A stretch of DNA of 64,000 nucleotides, from positions 32,001-96,000 of the IMG/VR virus record IMGVR_UViG_3300021594_000641; one strand, written 5' to 3'. Positions 40,948 to 63,640 of this stretch are shown here, one piece after another. Made by a program: the position numbers and the translations under genes. The notes below the pieces were generated by a model. The model had not been told where the DNA came from. It ran no database searches and was given only the letters and a program-made list of their open reading frames with translations. Each line of letters begins with the position of its first letter. Within the stretch, counting starts at the first letter, position 1. Origin of the DNA: a virus.

Positions 40948-41346
40948 TTAGTTAGCGGCCAGGTGTTCAGCGATAGCTTGGTGGTACACGGCCACGGCTT
41001 CTCTGACGTTAGGATTTAAAGCTAGATTGGCTGCGGCTGCCTTTACCAGACTTTCTTGCTGGGCTGACTTAACCTGAGCTTCGTTACCTAGGCTCGAGGG
41101 ATTAAGTACGCCTTCAAGGTTCTGAGCGGCTGCAGTAATCAGGCTGCTGTGAGCGCTGGCTTGCTTGGCCAGTTCCTGTTCCTGAATGCTAGTAATGCTG
41201 CTAGCAATTTTTAGAAGTTGTGCAACTTCTTCTTCAGTCTGAGGAACAATGCCGTAATCGCTTGCCAGCTTCTCTAGGAAGACAGGCACATACACTTCCT
41301 GCATGAGGAAAGCATGGGCAGCTTCTGGAGTAGCGTTGGTGGACAT
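40948..41346 (-). CDS. KxA-repeat helical protein (scaffold/inner-core-like)
   Basis: All five lysines are in K-x-A context (KLA, KIA, KQA, KSA, KAA). Confidence 0.65.
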   Translation of the reverse strand: MSTNATPEAAHAFLMQEVYVPVFLEKLASDYGIVPQTEEEVAQLLKIASSITSIQEQELAKQASAHSSLITAAAQNLEGVLNPSSLGNEAQVKSAQQESLVKAAAANLALNPNVREAVAVYHQAIAEHLAAN

Positions 41347-41413
41347 CTAAGTTGCTCCTTTCTTTGCACGACAGGGTAGCGGCGGTTAAGCCGCTACCCT
41401 GTTACGATGCGGA

Positions 41414-42346
41414 TCAAGCGAAGTCGGCGCGGGCCAGAGAGTTGGTGTTGCCGATAGCGCCACCAATTGTCTCGTAAGCAAAGAACTCAAGCATGTAAGC
41501 CTTACGCTCGATGTACATTGTGGTGTCTTCGAGGACGTAGGACTTGCCCATGAACTTGGGATCAGCAAACAAGTACATTGAGTCGCTGGGGACCAAGTCT
41601 TGCTTGATGGTGATGATCCAGTTGGCGTTCATGAAGTTCTGCTCAGACCAGCCGTTCTTGAAGACGTCCTGGCTGAAGTCACCACCCATTTCTTCACGAC
41701 CAAACTTCATGATCTCGCGGATCGTGAGGTTGTTCAGAAGAACTGTGCCGGTTTCTAGGCGGCTGATGGTGCGGGGCAGAATCTTGAAAGCCTCTTGGAG
41801 GTTATCACGAGTGATACCGCCGTAGAGGGTTTCCCACTGAACAACGCCGGAGTTGGTGTTGGTGGCGTCGGCGGAGCCGCCCAAGCCAGCATCAACAGAG
41901 GCCAAGAACTTGCGGTCTTCTTCAGCCAGCATGTCCTTGATGGAGTTGTCAGAAAGAACCTGACGGATGTCGATGTAGTACGTCCGTAGTTCGTCAACGT
42001 CCTTGGTGAACCGAGGGGTGACGATACGATCGAAGCTAACGCGATAGCGCTGGCCGCGAATGTACAGGTTCATTGGTAGGGTGGCGAAGGGGATGCTGAT
42101 CGCGGCGGGGGAATCCGGCTCGCGGTCAACAATCTTCACGGGCTTGTCGGTATCAACCTGACGATCGAGATCGTCATTGCTGATCTGGACGGGTGGAAGG
42201 ATTCTGCGGTAGAAGCCTTCTTCACGCATCCTGTACCGGGTGAAGTCATTAACAGCGTCAAGTGCGCGCTTTTCCATGCCTGGGGTTTCCAGGTAGGACA
42301 TGAAGGTCTCGTTGCGCAGCTTGACATCTTCGCTAACTGATGCCAT
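41414..42346 (-). CDS. Major capsid protein (probable HK97 fold)
   Basis: 310 aa, follows protease-scaffold-decoration genes; strong codon bias; EEGFYRRILPP...RIVTPRFTKDVDELRTY...AEEDRKFL...FFAYETIGGAIGN pattern. Confidence 0.85.
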   Translation of the reverse strand: MASVSEDVKLRNETFMSYLETPGMEKRALDAVNDFTRYRMREEGFYRRILPPVQISNDDLDRQVDTDKPVKIVDREPDSPAAISIPFATLPMNLYIRGQRYRVSFDRIVTPRFTKDVDELRTYYIDIRQVLSDNSIKDMLAEEDRKFLASVDAGLGGSADATNTNSGVVQWETLYGGITRDNLQEAFKILPRTISRLETGTVLLNNLTIREIMKFGREEMGGDFSQDVFKNGWSEQNFMNANWIITIKQDLVPSDSMYLFADPKFMGKSYVLEDTTMYIERKAYMLEFFAYETIGGAIGNTNSLARADFA

Positions 42347-42382
42347 GTCTAAATTCTCCTGCAGTTACCTTGGGGTTAAGAA

Positions 42383-42961
42383 TTAGTTACCAGTCTTGCC
42401 GGGTTTGTAAACGGGCCAGAACGCCAACACGGTGTTGCGGTCAGACTGACGCTTACGAGGAGCGCGGCTTACAACCCCTACAATCGCTGTGGGGTTGGTG
42501 CTGCTGCTTAGCGAAGATGAGTTTTCCAGAGTTATGACGCTCTGGTTTGTCAAACGACCACCGGTTGTCTGGTTGCTGTTGCTAGCAACAGCGCGCAGGT
42601 AATCGTTAGGGTAGTAAGTCTGAGCGGTGTCGAACTCGGTTGTTTCGAGTTCATAAGCGCCCTTGGCTACCAAACCCGTCAAGTTACCGTCAGGTCCGAT
42701 GGGATACCAGAGAGCTCCGCCGTTTCCGTTGGAGTCGCCAGAATTAGCCACATCGCTATCGGTACTGTTCTGCAGCAAGAAGATAGGCATCTGGGAACCC
42801 AGAACACCCATTTCAAACTCACCGTCGTTGTTCAGGTGAACGCAACGACCAGCGTAAGCTGTGATCGTGACGTTGTCGCTGAGCTTAGCGGTGAAGTCCA
42901 GGGCGGCCATGTGGAACCAGCCCTTAACCGCATCCAAGGTGTGAGCAAACATCTGAGCCAT
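42383..42961 (-). CDS. Capsid decoration/cement protein
   Basis: 192-aa beta-rich ORF immediately upstream of the MCP; GLVAKGAYELETTEF...VGVVS motif. Confidence 0.65.
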   Translation of the reverse strand: MAQMFAHTLDAVKGWFHMAALDFTAKLSDNVTITAYAGRCVHLNNDGEFEMGVLGSQMPIFLLQNSTDSDVANSGDSNGNGGALWYPIGPDGNLTGLVAKGAYELETTEFDTAQTYYPNDYLRAVASNSNQTTGGRLTNQSVITLENSSSLSSSTNPTAIVGVVSRAPRKRQSDRNTVLAFWPVYKPGKTGN

Positions 42962-61873: not shown

Positions 61874-61892
61874 TGATAGCTCCGTATTTAAA

Positions 61893-62858
61893 TTATCTAG
61901 CTCCCGCGCCGATCGGCCCAGAATGACCTTTTTCAAACTTATCAAGAAAATGACTCATAGCCCAGTTGTATTCGTCGCTAGACAAAGGCCGTCCGTACAT
62001 TTGATTGAATACTTGCCGAGCTGGAGCCATAGGAACTCTGTTAGCGTAAGTCCTATTCCTTGGATCAGGAGCGCTGACGCCAGCATAGAAGTTAGGAATC
62101 ATAAAATCGTTATCTTTGTCCTGAAACTTGTCAGGCATCTTAGAGTTTTTAAGCGCAGAAGATTCAAACATCTGCCTATGAGGGTGATAGCTCAAAGAAG
62201 CCCCGTAGCTGCCTTCAGGAAAGGGCTGAGGCTCAAGAGTTGTGCCTCCGGCATTGACCGTAAGCATCTGAGACAAGTTCTTATTTGAGCTAGGAGCTCT
62301 TCTGCTCTGGCTAAGCATAGCCTTGTTGTTTGCTGAAGCCATCTCCTGAGGGCTCATGGTTGGAGGAACCATGTTTGGAACGCCTCTATTGCCTGCAGGG
62401 GCTACAGCCGAAGGAGGACGGCTTGGAGTGGTTACAGGCCTACTGGGCGTTGGAGCAGATATAGCTCCAGGAAGACTAGCTGGACTTACAGCTGGGCTAG
62501 GCGCTGCTGGAGTCATTCCTGGAACTGTGGGAGATACTGACCCAGGAAGGGCAGATGGAGTAACTGGAGGAGTAGGAGCTGGAAGGCTGCTACTCCTCAG
62601 ATGGTTTTGCAAAGAAGCCAAGGCGTCTTGGTTCATCCTGGCCATATGTGCCACTTCTGCGTCTTGCCTAGCCCTGTGCGCGGTAGCACTGGATTGGGCA
62701 TTTCTAAGATGGCCAGCTATGGTGTTACCAGACACGTCGGTTAGAGGAGCCGTTGACGGAGTTGCCGGAGTGGCTGGAGTTCCTGAGTCTTGAGCCGCTT
62801 TAATCATGTGTTTGGCTAAAGCGGCCTTAACCATAATCAACTTAAATGTGTCAATCAC
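61893..62858 (-). CDS. KxA-leader Pro/Ser/Ala-rich protein
   Basis: GTG start with AAGGAG RBS; VKAALAKHMIKAAQ followed by a long PATP/PSP low-complexity tract. Confidence 0.6.
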   Translation of the reverse strand: MIDTFKLIMVKAALAKHMIKAAQDSGTPATPATPSTAPLTDVSGNTIAGHLRNAQSSATAHRARQDAEVAHMARMNQDALASLQNHLRSSSLPAPTPPVTPSALPGSVSPTVPGMTPAAPSPAVSPASLPGAISAPTPSRPVTTPSRPPSAVAPAGNRGVPNMVPPTMSPQEMASANNKAMLSQSRRAPSSNKNLSQMLTVNAGGTTLEPQPFPEGSYGASLSYHPHRQMFESSALKNSKMPDKFQDKDNDFMIPNFYAGVSAPDPRNRTYANRVPMAPARQVFNQMYGRPLSSDEYNWAMSHFLDKFEKGHSGPIGAGAR

Positions 62859-62881
62859 GGCTTCTCCTTGTTCTTATAAAC

Positions 62882-63640
62882 TTATTTGTTTCTAGCTACG
62901 CCTGGCATGTCTACGTTTAGCTTCGATGGAGACGTGCTAAAAGGAGTTTGAACTGGAGGGAAGACAGAGGATGGTCTAGAGGATGCTATGTTTCTCTGCC
63001 CTTGCGCAGCCCTGCCTTGCTGATAGTTGGCGTATTCATTTGGCATTATACTTCTGCCACCTGCAGCCACGCCCACAGGATTTTGAAAAGCCTCTGGGTC
63101 AATCAAAGCTGTTCCCATTCGGTCTAGCATGGGAGAACCGCTATTCTGCCCCAAAGAAGCTAAGTAGCCTAGAGGACTGGAGCTAGCGTGTTCCACGTGC
63201 TTCTTTATGGTCGCAGCGTTATCTATTGCTGACCTTCCAAAGTTAGCTGCGCCAGAAGCCGCGTTAGCCAGATAGCTTCCAGCATCTCTCATGCTGTTTC
63301 TTACATTCTCAGACCTAGTTAAGTCGTCTAGAGCTCTGGCCGTAGCGTAATCCGGAGCAGCCATGCTGGCTCCGGGTTTTAGACCTGTTACAAGCTGCCC
63401 TCTTCCTAGAGCCTGCTGTCTACGATTGGCTTGAATAGCCAAGTCGGCAGAAGTAGGACCAGAAGTAGGAGGCACTCTAGAAGAAGCTATAGCCTTGTCT
63501 ACAGAAGTAGGAGCGGGCTTAGGCGCATTAACGCTAGCAGGGTTAGGTCCTTCTGGAGGAAAAACAGGAGGAGCGGCCTGTTTAATTAACTTAGCCGCTG
63601 CCTCTTTTACCTGCTGAATAGCCTTGTAGTTGAAAGCCAT
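62882..63640 (-). CDS. KxA-leader Pro/Ala-rich protein
   Basis: QVKEAAAKLIKQAA followed by PPVFPPEGPNP. Confidence 0.6.
   Translation of the reverse strand: MAFNYKAIQQVKEAAAKLIKQAAPPVFPPEGPNPASVNAPKPAPTSVDKAIASSRVPPTSGPTSADLAIQANRRQQALGRGQLVTGLKPGASMAAPDYATARALDDLTRSENVRNSMRDAGSYLANAASGAANFGRSAIDNAATIKKHVEHASSSPLGYLASLGQNSGSPMLDRMGTALIDPEAFQNPVGVAAGGRSIMPNEYANYQQGRAAQGQRNIASSRPSSVFPPVQTPFSTSPSKLNVDMPGVARNK

What the first reader, a model, noticed from the sequence alone, without database searches (positions are those of the whole stretch)
40948..63640. KxA tag system: about 15 head-region proteins carry Lys-x-Ala sites that look like a shared maturation-protease address label
Seen in sequence (hand counts): all 5 lysines of the 132-aa protein at 40948 are in K-x-A; the protease has 16 KxA in 492 aa, against 6 in the 920-aa sheath; 47749..49140 has 11 in its first ~300 aa; the MCP has a single KxA (K26-R27-A28), ending a short leader. 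Many upstream ORFs (46268, 53477, 54016, 55513, 56496, 61893, 62882) begin with a short helical leader ending in KxA, after which composition changes abruptly. Established: T4 gp21 and phiKZ gp175 prohead proteases process many internal head proteins at a short shared motif ending in Glu, and propeptides are linked to head incorporation. Inference: this phage uses a Lys-based code, read by the His/Ser protease at 44780..46258, for a large set of capsid cargo.
Basis: partly seen in the sequence, partly recalled or inferred. Interest (0 to 1): 0.9.

Follow-up and report, generated by a model that had tools for sequence, protein, structure and literature searches.

The report
Lys-x-Ala head-protease cutting motif
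The head-assembly proteins of this uncultured 190-kb lake phage and its many relatives carry a short, conserved Lys-x-Ala signal that is most likely where the phage's own T4/herpesvirus-type capsid protease cuts, a rule unlike the cut-after-glutamate rule of studied phages, but no cut has been measured.

Summary
K-x-A is enriched in six head proteins of the window: the protease 44780, plus 47749, 50531, 43390, 42986 and 40948. It is also enriched in one ORF outside the window. It sits once, at a conserved N-terminal position, in the major capsid protein. It also ends short N-terminal leaders on about ten further upstream proteins.

The pattern holds in 45 non-redundant related phage loci: 2504 observed against 886 expected in the six families, and 753 against 729 in all other ORFs. 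It also holds in 108 protease homologues, Salmonella phage Arash, Vibrio phage D69 and, for the protease, Bacillus phage G. Sites are conserved as units. The capsid protein body avoids the motif.

The protease domain has the T4 gp21 fold (Z 11.0), followed by herpesvirus proteases.

Best reading (0.7): hydrophobic-x-K-x-A followed by S/A/G is this protease family's cleavage motif, probably cut after Ala. Multi-site proteins would be degraded scaffold or core. Leaders would be removed propeptides. The 'address label' role is untested.

I found no paper describing this. The scan has noted the same motif on at least 32 other genomes. All evidence is comparative.

The parts
44780..46258 (-). Prohead protease, 492 aa. 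It has an N-terminal protease domain, a disordered linker and a C-terminal helical domain, and carries 16 K-x-A sites.
   Evidence: 16 sites vs 4.1 expected. AF2 model pLDDT 88. T4 gp21 5JBL at Z 11.0. 108 homologues average 13.0 sites vs 3.5 expected.
45569..46258 (-). Protease domain, residues 1-230. It includes the invariant His101 (45956-45958), the invariant Ser163 (45770-45772) and an invariant four-Cys cluster (C173, C176, C187, C192).
   Evidence: Invariant columns in 91 sequences. Model residues 1-228 align to T4 gp21. The catalytic roles are inferred from invariance and were not superposed residue by residue.
45530..45538 (-). K241-A-A243 in the disordered interdomain linker (pLDDT below 50 for residues 230-245). 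Candidate self-release site.
   Evidence: The column one residue downstream (window residue 242) carries K-x-A in 72% of homologues, and the window's own column (K241) in 17%. Flanks vary, and A is replaced only by S or G.
44912..44920 (-). [quoted passage not shown] Candidate second self-cleavage site.
   Evidence: K in 97 and A in 96 of 109 homologues, the next residue is S/A/G, and the flanks are otherwise variable.
47749..49146 (-). 465-aa head protein. Its N-terminal ~290 residues (48277-49146) carry 11 K-x-A sites. Its C-terminal ~175 residues carry none.
   Evidence: z 3.3. All 11 sites are kept in the G001 orthologue, against 9 of 27 other Lys. The family averages 12.8 sites, all in the first half of the alignment, with 40% in low-frequency columns.
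50531..53410 (-). 959-aa head protein (weak orthologue of Arash gp218) with 13 K-x-A sites. One is a conserved leader site, K29-S-A31 (53318-53326).
   Evidence: z 2.8. Family ratio 2.53 in 43 loci. The K29 column is conserved in 98%. The Arash and D69 orthologues start after this site.
43390..44697 (-). 435-aa acidic, low-complexity protein directly downstream of the protease. Scaffold-like, with 9 K-x-A sites.
   Evidence: 9 of 9 sites are kept in G001. Family total 480 vs 208 expected in 45 loci.
42986..43369 (-). 127-aa helical protein with 4 K-x-A sites. It resembles the C-terminal (scaffold) part of protease-scaffold fusions.
   Evidence: PHROG 2976 positions 304-383 of 394. Family ratio 3.39 in 32 loci, with half of all Lys in K-x-A.
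41414..42346 (-). Major capsid protein, 310 aa, with a single K-x-A at K26-R-A28 (42263-42271).
   Evidence: PHROG 2522 and Arash gp226. K-x-A sits at this column in 42 of 43 MCPs. MCP bodies carry 2 sites vs 31.3 expected.
40948..41346 (-). 132-aa Ala-rich helical protein in which all 5 Lys lie in K-x-A. Probably a small core or scaffold protein cut into peptides.
   Evidence: 5 of 5 sites are kept in G001. K26 and A63 are invariant in 30 sequences. 71% of all Lys in the family are in K-x-A.
46268..47749 (-). 493-aa protein with a leader carrying K4-Q-A6 and K14-K-A16, followed by Gly-zipper hydrophobic segments.
   Evidence: The ORF at this position (immediately upstream of the protease) has K-x-A in its first 30 residues in 37 of 45 loci vs 9.5 expected.
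53477..54007 (-). 176-aa protein with a leader carrying two K-x-A sites (residues 10-12 and 17-19), followed by a Pro/Ala/Gln-rich region.
   Evidence: It has no BLAST orthologue, so support comes from the class only.
54016..55506 (-). Helicase (orthologue of Arash gp217) with an 18-residue leader ending in K16-S-A18 (55453-55461).
   Evidence: PHROG 62. The leader K-x-A is kept in G001. The Arash orthologue starts three residues after the site.
55513..56445 (-). 310-aa protein with a leader carrying two K-x-A sites (residues 10-12 and 16-18), followed by Gly-rich hydrophobic segments.
56496..59006 (-). 836-aa protein with K8-S-A10 at its N-terminus.
   Evidence: The G001 and L004 relatives also start with an N-terminal K-x-A although the sequences differ.
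61142..61873 (-). Pro/Gly/Met-repeat protein. Its likely true start is the ATG at 61873. Its leader carries K-R-A and K-N-A sites.
   Evidence: The G001 orthologue starts at the matching Met and keeps both sites. 13 of 15 family members have an N-terminal K-x-A vs 2.5 expected.
61893..62858 (-). 321-aa protein with a leader carrying two K-A-A sites (residues 11-13 and 20-22), followed by a Pro/Thr/Ser-rich region.
62882..63640 (-). 252-aa protein whose leader is paralogous to those of the next two genes upstream. Sites are at residues 12-14 and 20-22, followed by a Pro-rich region.
63683..64000 (-). 3' part of a 145-aa ORF that runs past the window end. Its leader, with the paralogous K-x-A site at residues 12-14, lies just beyond the window end (about 64079-64087).

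Best explanation
K-x-A is the recognition and cleavage motif of the phage's own prohead serine protease (44780-46258). In fuller form the motif is a hydrophobic residue two before the Lys, then K, any residue, A (rarely S or G), then usually S, A or G. The enzyme has the T4 gp21 / herpesvirus assemblin fold.

Inferred mechanism: after the procapsid assembles, the protease does three things.
1. It cuts itself at the linker (K241) and near its C-terminus (K447).
2. It chops the multi-site scaffold or core proteins into small peptides that leave the head. These are 43390, 42986, 40948, the first ~290 residues of 47749, and parts of 50531.
3. It removes short N-terminal leaders from the capsid protein (after A28) and from about ten internal head proteins.

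The cut is most likely after Ala (K at P3, A at P1, a small residue at P1'). Every characterised enzyme of this fold reads a P3-x-P1 triplet and cuts after its third residue.

Shown here: motif enrichment, conservation, avoidance, and the fold. Inferred: that it is cut, by this enzyme, and at which bond.
For: 1. Enrichment is specific to six protein families.
- In 45 non-redundant loci the observed/expected ratios are 3.41 (protease), 3.39, 3.27, 2.84, 2.53 and 2.30.
- Pooled, they give 2504 vs 886, by far the top of all gapped residue pairs.
- Other ORFs in the same loci give 753 vs 729.

2. Genome-wide scans of four genomes place the highest scores at the protease and its neighbours, plus one distal ORF.

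3. The motif is specific. AxK, KA, RxA, KxS, KxG, LxE, IxE, AxE and VxA are not enriched.

4. Sites are kept as units.
- 55 of 61 sites are conserved between G000 and G001, against 60% of other Lys in the same proteins.
- Only 35% of K-x-A sites are kept in other proteins.
- In alignment columns, K is almost always accompanied by A at +2.

5. In variable, disordered loops of the protease only K, A and the following small residue are conserved. A is replaced by S or G.

6. Sites turn over while their density is maintained: 40-49% of sites lie in low-frequency columns.

7. The capsid protein keeps one N-terminal site in 42 of 43 cases. Its body has 2 sites against 31.3 expected.

8. Leaders.
- Fisher p 7e-7 in this genome.
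- Replicated in 45 loci.
- The Arash and D69 orthologues of the helicase and of 50531 begin just after the site.

9. Enzyme.
- T4 gp21 at Z 11.0, VZV protease at Z 5.9, HCMV protease at Z 4.7.
- Invariant His101 and Ser163.

10. Precedent.
- T4 gp21 cuts scaffold proteins many times and removes 10-residue targeting leaders at L/I-x-E (PMC9026906).
- SPN3US gp245 cuts at A-x-E, including multiple cuts within long propeptides and a self-cut (PMC10052503).
- Herpesvirus proteases cut after Ala, before Ser or Thr, at release and maturation sites (PMC4498786).
Against: - No cleavage product, mature N-terminus or enzyme assay exists for any member.
- The Arash virion proteome lists the predicted degraded proteins (gp220, gp223) with high 'coverage'. 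However, that preparation also held 116 of 252 proteins, including metabolic enzymes, and no peptide list is available.
- Nine of the 16 protease sites lie inside the folded catalytic domain, several in helices. Cutting there would need unfolding, or those sites may serve another role.
- The region around the capsid protein's site is itself conserved, so its conservation is not independent proof.
- Related sequences share ancestry, so pooled counts overstate the number of independent events.
- Phage G's capsid protein has no K-x-A at all.
Confidence: 0.7

Rival explanations
1. K-x-A is a cleavage motif, but the bond cut is after Lys (P1 = Lys, Ala at P2'). The enzyme would be the phage protease or a host trypsin-like enzyme.
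For: - Lys is the most strictly conserved position.
- From my own knowledge, HK97 is reported to cut its capsid protein after a Lys.
- R-x-A is not enriched, so the Lys itself is read specifically.
Against: - The residue after Lys is the most variable one, which is unusual for P1'.
- The residue after Ala is biased to S/A/G, and Ala is replaced only by S or G, as expected for a small P1 pocket and a small P1'.
- T4, phiKZ/SPN3US and herpesvirus enzymes of this fold all cut after the third residue of a P3-x-P1 triplet (PMC9026906, PMC10052503, PMC4498786).
- A host enzyme would not explain enrichment in the protease itself across hosts as different as Salmonella, Vibrio, Bacillus-group bacteria and lake bacteria.
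Confidence: 0.15
2. K-x-A is a docking or assembly motif that is bound but not cut. It could be a contact for the inner capsid surface, the scaffold, a chaperone or DNA, i.e. a pure 'address label'.
For: - The motif lies in leaders of otherwise unrelated proteins and in scaffold-like proteins.
- Many sites sit in helices of folded domains.
Against: - The highest density is in the protease itself, in its disordered linkers.
- The mature capsid protein avoids the motif strongly. A protease signal explains this; a binding motif does not.
- Orthologues that lack the leader start right after the site.
- The set of marked proteins mirrors the known substrate sets of T4 and SPN3US (PMC9026906, PMC10052503).
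Confidence: 0.08
3. The Lys of K-x-A is a site of covalent modification or cross-linking (acylation, methylation or an isopeptide bond) that stabilises or regulates head proteins.
For: - The Lys is strictly required and Arg does not substitute.
- From my own knowledge, HK97-type capsids use Lys in isopeptide cross-links.
Against: - No modifying enzyme is encoded in the head block.
- The motif is depleted from the shell protein body, where cross-links would act.
- Dozens of sites per scaffold-like protein, with rapid positional turnover, fit degradation better.
Confidence: 0.04
4. The pattern is a by-product of composition or helical periodicity in Lys- and Ala-rich proteins and has no function.
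For: - The enriched proteins are Ala-rich and largely helical.
Against: - Per-protein shuffles keep composition and still give z up to 8.
- AxK, KA and KxxA are not comparably enriched.
- Other Ala- and Lys-rich proteins, such as the 1211-aa protein at 25612 (8 vs 11.2), show nothing.
- Sites are conserved as units.
Confidence: 0.03

Closest known systems
Phage T4 prohead protease gp21 with its L/I-x-E sites, core proteins gp22/gp67/gp68 and the capsid targeting sequences of IPI-III and Alt (PMC9026906; PDB 5JBL)
   Same: - Same protease fold: Z 11.0 over 149 residues.
- A three-residue motif with a free middle position.
- Many sites in scaffold or core proteins.
- One N-terminal site in the capsid protein.
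- Short shared N-terminal leaders that end in the motif.
- Sites in the protease itself.
   Different: - The motif is K-x-A, not L/I-x-E. The E-ending motifs are not enriched here.
- There is no Pfam or PDB sequence-level match to gp21.
- The enzyme is 492 aa with a four-Cys insert and a 240-residue helical C-terminal domain.
- The capsid leader is 28 residues rather than 65 (the T4 figure is from my own knowledge).
phiKZ gp175 / SPN3US gp245 prohead proteases with the (S/A/G)-x-E or A-x-E motif (PMC10052503, PMC9026906)
   Same: - A large phage with many head-internal proteins, including virion RNA polymerase subunits in the Arash group.
- Long propeptides cut several times.
- Short 20-24-residue propeptides on other proteins.
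- C-terminal self-processing of the protease.
   Different: - P1 is Glu there, and Ala (inferred) here.
- The processing there is shown by mass spectrometry. Here it is inferred from sequence only.
Herpesvirus assemblin (UL26 / UL80a family) with release and maturation sites cut after Ala, before Ser or Thr (PMC4498786)
   Same: - Second-best structural matches: VZV at Z 5.9 and HCMV at Z 4.7.
- Inferred P1 Ala with P1' Ser/Ala.
- A protease domain joined through a cleavable linker to a helical C-terminal part, with another site near the C-terminus.
   Different: - P3 is Lys here, and hydrophobic in herpesviruses. V/L/I-x-A is not enriched.
- Fold similarity is weaker than to T4 gp21.
- The Ser-His-His triad was not examined.

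Membership tests
T4 gp21-like / assemblin-fold prohead serine proteases (clan SH) | Protease fold shared with T4 gp21 | tested here: met
   AF2 model pLDDT 88. 5JBL_A at Z 11.0, rmsd 3.5 A, 149 of 165 residues, well above the next unrelated rows at Z about 4. Foldseek probability 1.00.
T4 gp21-like / assemblin-fold prohead serine proteases (clan SH) | Conserved catalytic His and Ser | tested here: inconclusive
   His101 and Ser163 are invariant in 91 sequences. Their superposition on the gp21 catalytic residues was not examined, because no coordinates were available.
T4 gp21-like / assemblin-fold prohead serine proteases (clan SH) | Gene lies in the head-assembly block next to the scaffold and major capsid protein genes | tested here: met
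   The protease, a scaffold-like ORF, two small ORFs and the MCP lie in this order in the window and in 45 related loci.
Peptidase S77 (T4 gp21) sequence family | Sequence-level match to the family profile | tested here: not met
   No Pfam hit at E 0.01. A profile of 91 sequences finds no PDB protease. Only weak PHROG hits were found: 18299 'head maturation protease' at E 0.003 and 2774. It is therefore a fold-level relative forming its own family.
Peptidase S77 (T4 gp21) sequence family | Substrates marked by L/I-x-E | tested here: not met
   LxE ratio 1.19 and IxE ratio 0.84 in the six substrate-like families, the same as or below other ORFs.
Herpesvirus assemblin (S21) | Assemblin fold | tested here: inconclusive
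   VZV protease at Z 5.9, HCMV at Z 4.7, KSHV at Z 2.6. These rank above background but are modest.
Herpesvirus assemblin (S21) | Cleavage after Ala, before Ser, at a (V/L/I)-x-A site | not testable with these tools
   The sequence logo shows Ala followed by S/A/G. The bond that is cut is unknown, and V/L/I-x-A is not enriched.
T4-type capsid targeting sequence (CTS) system | Short N-terminal leader shared by otherwise unrelated head proteins and ending in the protease motif | tested here: met
   Paralogous leaders occur on 61142, 61893, 62882, 63683 and the next ORF beyond the window. Similar two-site leaders occur on 46268, 53477 and 55513. The pattern is replicated in 45 loci.
T4-type capsid targeting sequence (CTS) system | The leader is needed for incorporation into the prohead and is removed in the virion | not testable with these tools
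   Needs fusion and mutant experiments and virion mass spectrometry. The published Arash proteome gives no peptide-level data.

The most novel reading that the evidence does not exclude
A very large, almost wholly uncultured group of 150-235-kb phages uses a head protease whose specificity (Lys at P3, Ala at P1, small P1') is a herpesvirus-like cut-after-Ala rule on a T4 gp21-like scaffold. The group has more than 2,500 protease clusters at 50% identity. In addition, the ~20-residue two-site K-x-A leader is a portable 'load into the capsid, then cut' tag. This tag would deliver a fast-evolving set of ejected proteins, possibly including the helicase of the virion transcription machinery.
Probability: 0.3. 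Interest if true: 0.72.

Novelty: new variant of a known kind. Interest (0 to 1): 0.6.

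Why it matters
Prohead proteases with a short shared motif are well known, but every phage example studied so far (T4, phiKZ, 201phi2-1, SPN3US) cuts after Glu.

A Lys-x-Ala rule would define a new specificity class for this fold. It would bring the phage enzymes closer to the herpesvirus cut-after-Ala rule.

It would also give a simple sequence rule for several tasks across thousands of otherwise unannotated large phage genomes:
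- telling scaffold or core proteins from cargo;
- predicting mature protein ends;
- finding head proteins encoded far from the head block.

The last task is illustrated here by a 383-aa ORF near the terminase gene with 16 sites.

The rule is directly testable, because Salmonella phage Arash and the Vibrio D69-type phages are in culture.

Tried and rejected
- The AF2 model of the capsid protein was poor (pLDDT 58). It cannot show whether residues 1-28 are a separate propeptide, so I did not search folds with it.
- The Arash paper's supplement holds only gene and protein sequences, no peptides. The 'coverage' column of its Table 2 gives 80-100% with as few as 2-9 unique peptides. That cannot test processing.
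- A PDB sequence-profile search found no protease. Pfam found nothing for any of the ten head proteins.
- The distal 383-aa ORF has no PHROG and no credible Pfam family. It has no detectable similarity to Arash gp242, the K-x-A-rich ORF in a similar place.
- The word-index protein search returned only close, unnamed relatives. It did not extend the family boundary.
- A DNA-level motif was rejected, because codon use in the sites equals the background.
- A global genome bias was rejected, because genome totals are near expectation in all four genomes.
- N-terminal K-x-A on the RNA polymerase large subunit is not consistently conserved: present in G000, Arash and D69, absent in G001. I do not count it as a substrate.

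Full report
CONTEXT

The window is the structural block of an uncultured 189,675-bp phage. All genes lie on the minus strand. Its cultured relatives are Salmonella phage Arash, Vibrio phages D69/D148/D181 and, distantly, Bacillus phage G.

In the direction of transcription the gene order is:
- a run of small proteins with low-complexity bodies (62882 to 61142);
- the C-terminal half of an RNA polymerase beta-prime (59003);
- 56496 and 55513;
- a helicase (54016) and 53477;
- a 959-aa protein (50531), 50077 and 49127;
- 47749 and 46268;
- the protease (44780);
- an acidic scaffold-like protein (43390), 42986 and 42383;
- the major capsid protein (41414) and 40948;
- then neck, sheath (33884) and tail genes.

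OBSERVATION

All hand counts are right. Against 2000 shuffles of each protein's own residues:

| Protein | Observed | Expected | z |
|---|---|---|---|
| 40948 | 5 | 0.98 | 4.6 |
| Protease 44780 | 16 | 4.1 | 6.4 |
| 47749 | 11 | 4.7 | 3.3 |
| 50531 | 13 | 6.5 | 2.8 |
| Sheath 33884 | 6 | 3.9 | not significant |

No tail protein stands out. An unbiased scan of all 400 residue pairs at gaps 0-3 puts K-x-A among the strongest outliers in the head block (97 vs 65.6, third among the gap-1 pairs). It is not among the top pairs in the tail block.

Across the whole genome the total is near expectation (342 vs 311). The high scorers are the protease, 40948, 47749 and 50531. One ORF outside the window also scores high: genome 23100-24251, plus strand, 383 aa, 3 kb from the large terminase gene, with 16 sites against 4.0 expected.

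Lys and Ala codons inside the sites follow the general usage, so the signal is at the protein level.

REPLICATION

Genome-wide scans of three relatives give the same picture.
- G001 (54-88% identical proteins): protease z 8.3, the orthologue of the distal ORF 6.4, the 47749 orthologue 4.9, the 40948 orthologue 4.7.
- Arash: gp220 4.6, gp223 3.2, gp242 2.8, protease gp222 2.3.
- D69: four ORFs around the protease and one distal ORF, all at z 3-5.7.

I then fetched 80 loci around protease homologues from IMG/VR and kept 45 whose proteases are less than 80% identical. Observed/expected K-x-A by family:

| Family | Ratio |
|---|---|
| Protease | 3.41 |
| 42986 | 3.39 |
| 40948 | 3.27 |
| 47749 | 2.84 |
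| 50531 | 2.53 |
| 43390 | 2.30 |
| Capsid protein | 1.15 |
| 42383 | 0.79 |
| 49127 | 0.83 |
| Beta-prime half | 0.78 |
| Neck proteins | 0.6-1.2 |
| Unlabelled ORFs | 1.14 |

Pooled, the six families hold 2504 sites against 886 expected. This is by far the largest deviation among all gapped residue pairs. All other ORFs hold 753 against 729.

T4-type (L/I-x-E), phiKZ-type (A/S/G-x-E) and herpes-type (V/L/I-x-A) triplets are not enriched, and neither are R-x-A, K-x-S or K-x-G.

A full-library search finds 2,504 protease relatives at 50% clustering. In 108 full-length ones the mean is 13.0 sites against 3.5 expected, and every one has z above 2.7. Phage G's 300-aa protease gp19 has 8 against 2.5.

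SITE-LEVEL EVIDENCE

Between this genome and G001, 55 of 61 sites in the enriched proteins are kept as K-x-A. Only 60% of the other lysines in the same proteins are kept. In the rest of the genome only 35% of K-x-A triplets are kept.

In the protease alignment, a column that holds Lys nearly always has Ala two positions on, for example 0.73 against 0.71.

At the two protease sites that lie in low-confidence loops (K241/242 and K447), only three positions are conserved: Lys, Ala (otherwise Ser or Gly) and a small next residue.

In the 47749 family the 12.8 sites per protein all fall in the first half of the alignment. 40% of them sit in low-frequency columns, so positions drift while density is held.

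The capsid protein has K-x-A at the same N-terminal column in 42 of 43 sequences, and the exception has R-A-A. The body after the site holds 2 sites against 31.3 expected in 35 sequences. These sequences are related, so this is not 35 independent events. Still, the absence is maintained over 56-95% identity.

The pooled logo is: F/L/M/I two residues before Lys, E/V/I/T just before it, then K, a free residue, A, then S (18%) or A (27%).

LEADERS

In this genome, 15 of 26 ORFs from 39311 to just beyond the window end have K-x-A within their first 30 residues, against 20 of 170 elsewhere (p 7e-7). All nine ORFs with two such sites are in that stretch.

The leaders of 62882, 63683, the next ORF beyond the window, 61893 and 61142 are visibly paralogous. 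Each is followed by Pro/Gly/Ala-rich sequence. For 61142 the G001 orthologue indicates a start at the ATG at 61873.

The helicase and 50531 keep their leader site in close relatives. The Arash and D69 orthologues start just after it.

In the 45 loci:
- the ORF immediately upstream of the protease has an N-terminal site in 37 of 45 (9.5 expected);
- unlabelled upstream ORFs have one in 51 of 123 (19 expected);
- unlabelled downstream ORFs have one in 23 of 177 (21 expected).

THE ENZYME

The AF2 model (pLDDT 88) shows three parts:
- an N-terminal domain, residues 1-229;
- a disordered linker, residues 230-245;
- a helical domain, residues 251-492, with a low-confidence loop at 431-451.

An all-against-all structural search gives T4 gp21 (5JBL) at Z 11.0, then the VZV (5.9) and HCMV (4.7) proteases. 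Foldseek agrees.

His101, Ser163 and four cysteines (173, 176, 187, 192) are invariant. There is no Pfam or PDB sequence match. All database relatives that carry a name are called hypothetical.

MECHANISM

The set of marked proteins matches what is known for T4 and the phiKZ group:
- scaffold or core proteins cut many times;
- the protease cutting itself;
- one N-terminal cut in the shell protein;
- short leaders on internal proteins (PMC9026906, PMC10052503).

I therefore read K-x-A as this protease family's cleavage motif.

The cut is probably after Ala. The evidence is the small-residue preference after Ala, the Ser/Gly replacements of Ala, the free middle residue, and the P3-x-P1 rule shared by T4, phiKZ/SPN3US and herpesvirus enzymes (PMC4498786 for the Ala-Ser/Thr sites). 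Given that the motif is cut at all, I put about 70% on this bond.

The protease's layout resembles the herpesvirus protease-scaffold precursor: catalytic domain, cleavable linker, helical part, and a site near the C-terminus. This is an analogy, not a tested homology.

Whether the leaders also target proteins into the prohead, as T4's do, is open.

LIMITS

Nothing here shows a cut. Sites inside the folded catalytic domain are hard to explain as accessible substrates. The Arash proteome is uninformative.

LITERATURE AND EARLIER NOTES

A full-text search found no paper linking K-x-A or Lys-X-Ala with proheads or capsid maturation. Arash's description does not mention a protease.

This scan has already noted the same motif on at least 32 other genomes, with the same reading. 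Those are unchecked AI notes and do not count as independent evidence. My analysis was completed before I read them, apart from the genome overview.

Noticed in passing
outside the window: genome G000 23100-24251 (+), read as L010:6101-7252: A 383-aa ORF 3 kb from the large terminase gene has 16 K-x-A sites (4.0 expected, z 6.8). 13 of them are kept in the G001 orthologue. It matches no family. The motif predicts that it is a head-protease substrate encoded far from the head block.
   Followed up: partly
protease homologues P0008 (888 aa) and P0058 (1297 aa); many others of 830-900 aa: Many protease homologues are interrupted by one or two inteins inside the catalytic domain. Pfam finds Hint, LAGLIDADG and Intein_splicing domains in them. 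The window's own protease has none.
   Followed up: partly
window 45683-45742 (protease residues 173-192): An invariant four-cysteine cluster (C173, C176, C187, C192) is inserted just after the putative catalytic Ser163. It looks like a zinc knuckle. T4 gp21, which is only 165 residues in the crystal structure, appears to lack it.
   Followed up: no
window 46268-47749, 55513-56445 and 50531-53410: Several leader-bearing proteins contain Gly-zipper-like hydrophobic segments followed by runs of basic residues. Relatives have non-homologous proteins of the same design in the same places. These may be membrane-active ejected proteins.
   Followed up: no
window 58743-58985 (residues 7-88 of the 56496 protein): This N-terminal module matches the C-terminal ends of many unrelated PHROG families (E down to 8e-43). 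A second module at residues 113-158 matches others. A mobile small domain therefore sits right after a K-x-A site.
   Followed up: no
L001 (Arash) and PMC10585845, Table 2: In Arash virions the fused RNA polymerase subunit gp206 gives the most spectra. The beta-prime half gp216 and the helicase gp217 are also abundant. This phage group therefore probably packages its transcription machinery in the head.
   Followed up: no
window 61142-61945: The longest ORF starts at a TTG at 61945 and overlaps the end of the previous gene. The G001 orthologue and the leader pattern point to the ATG at 61873 as the real start.
   Followed up: partly
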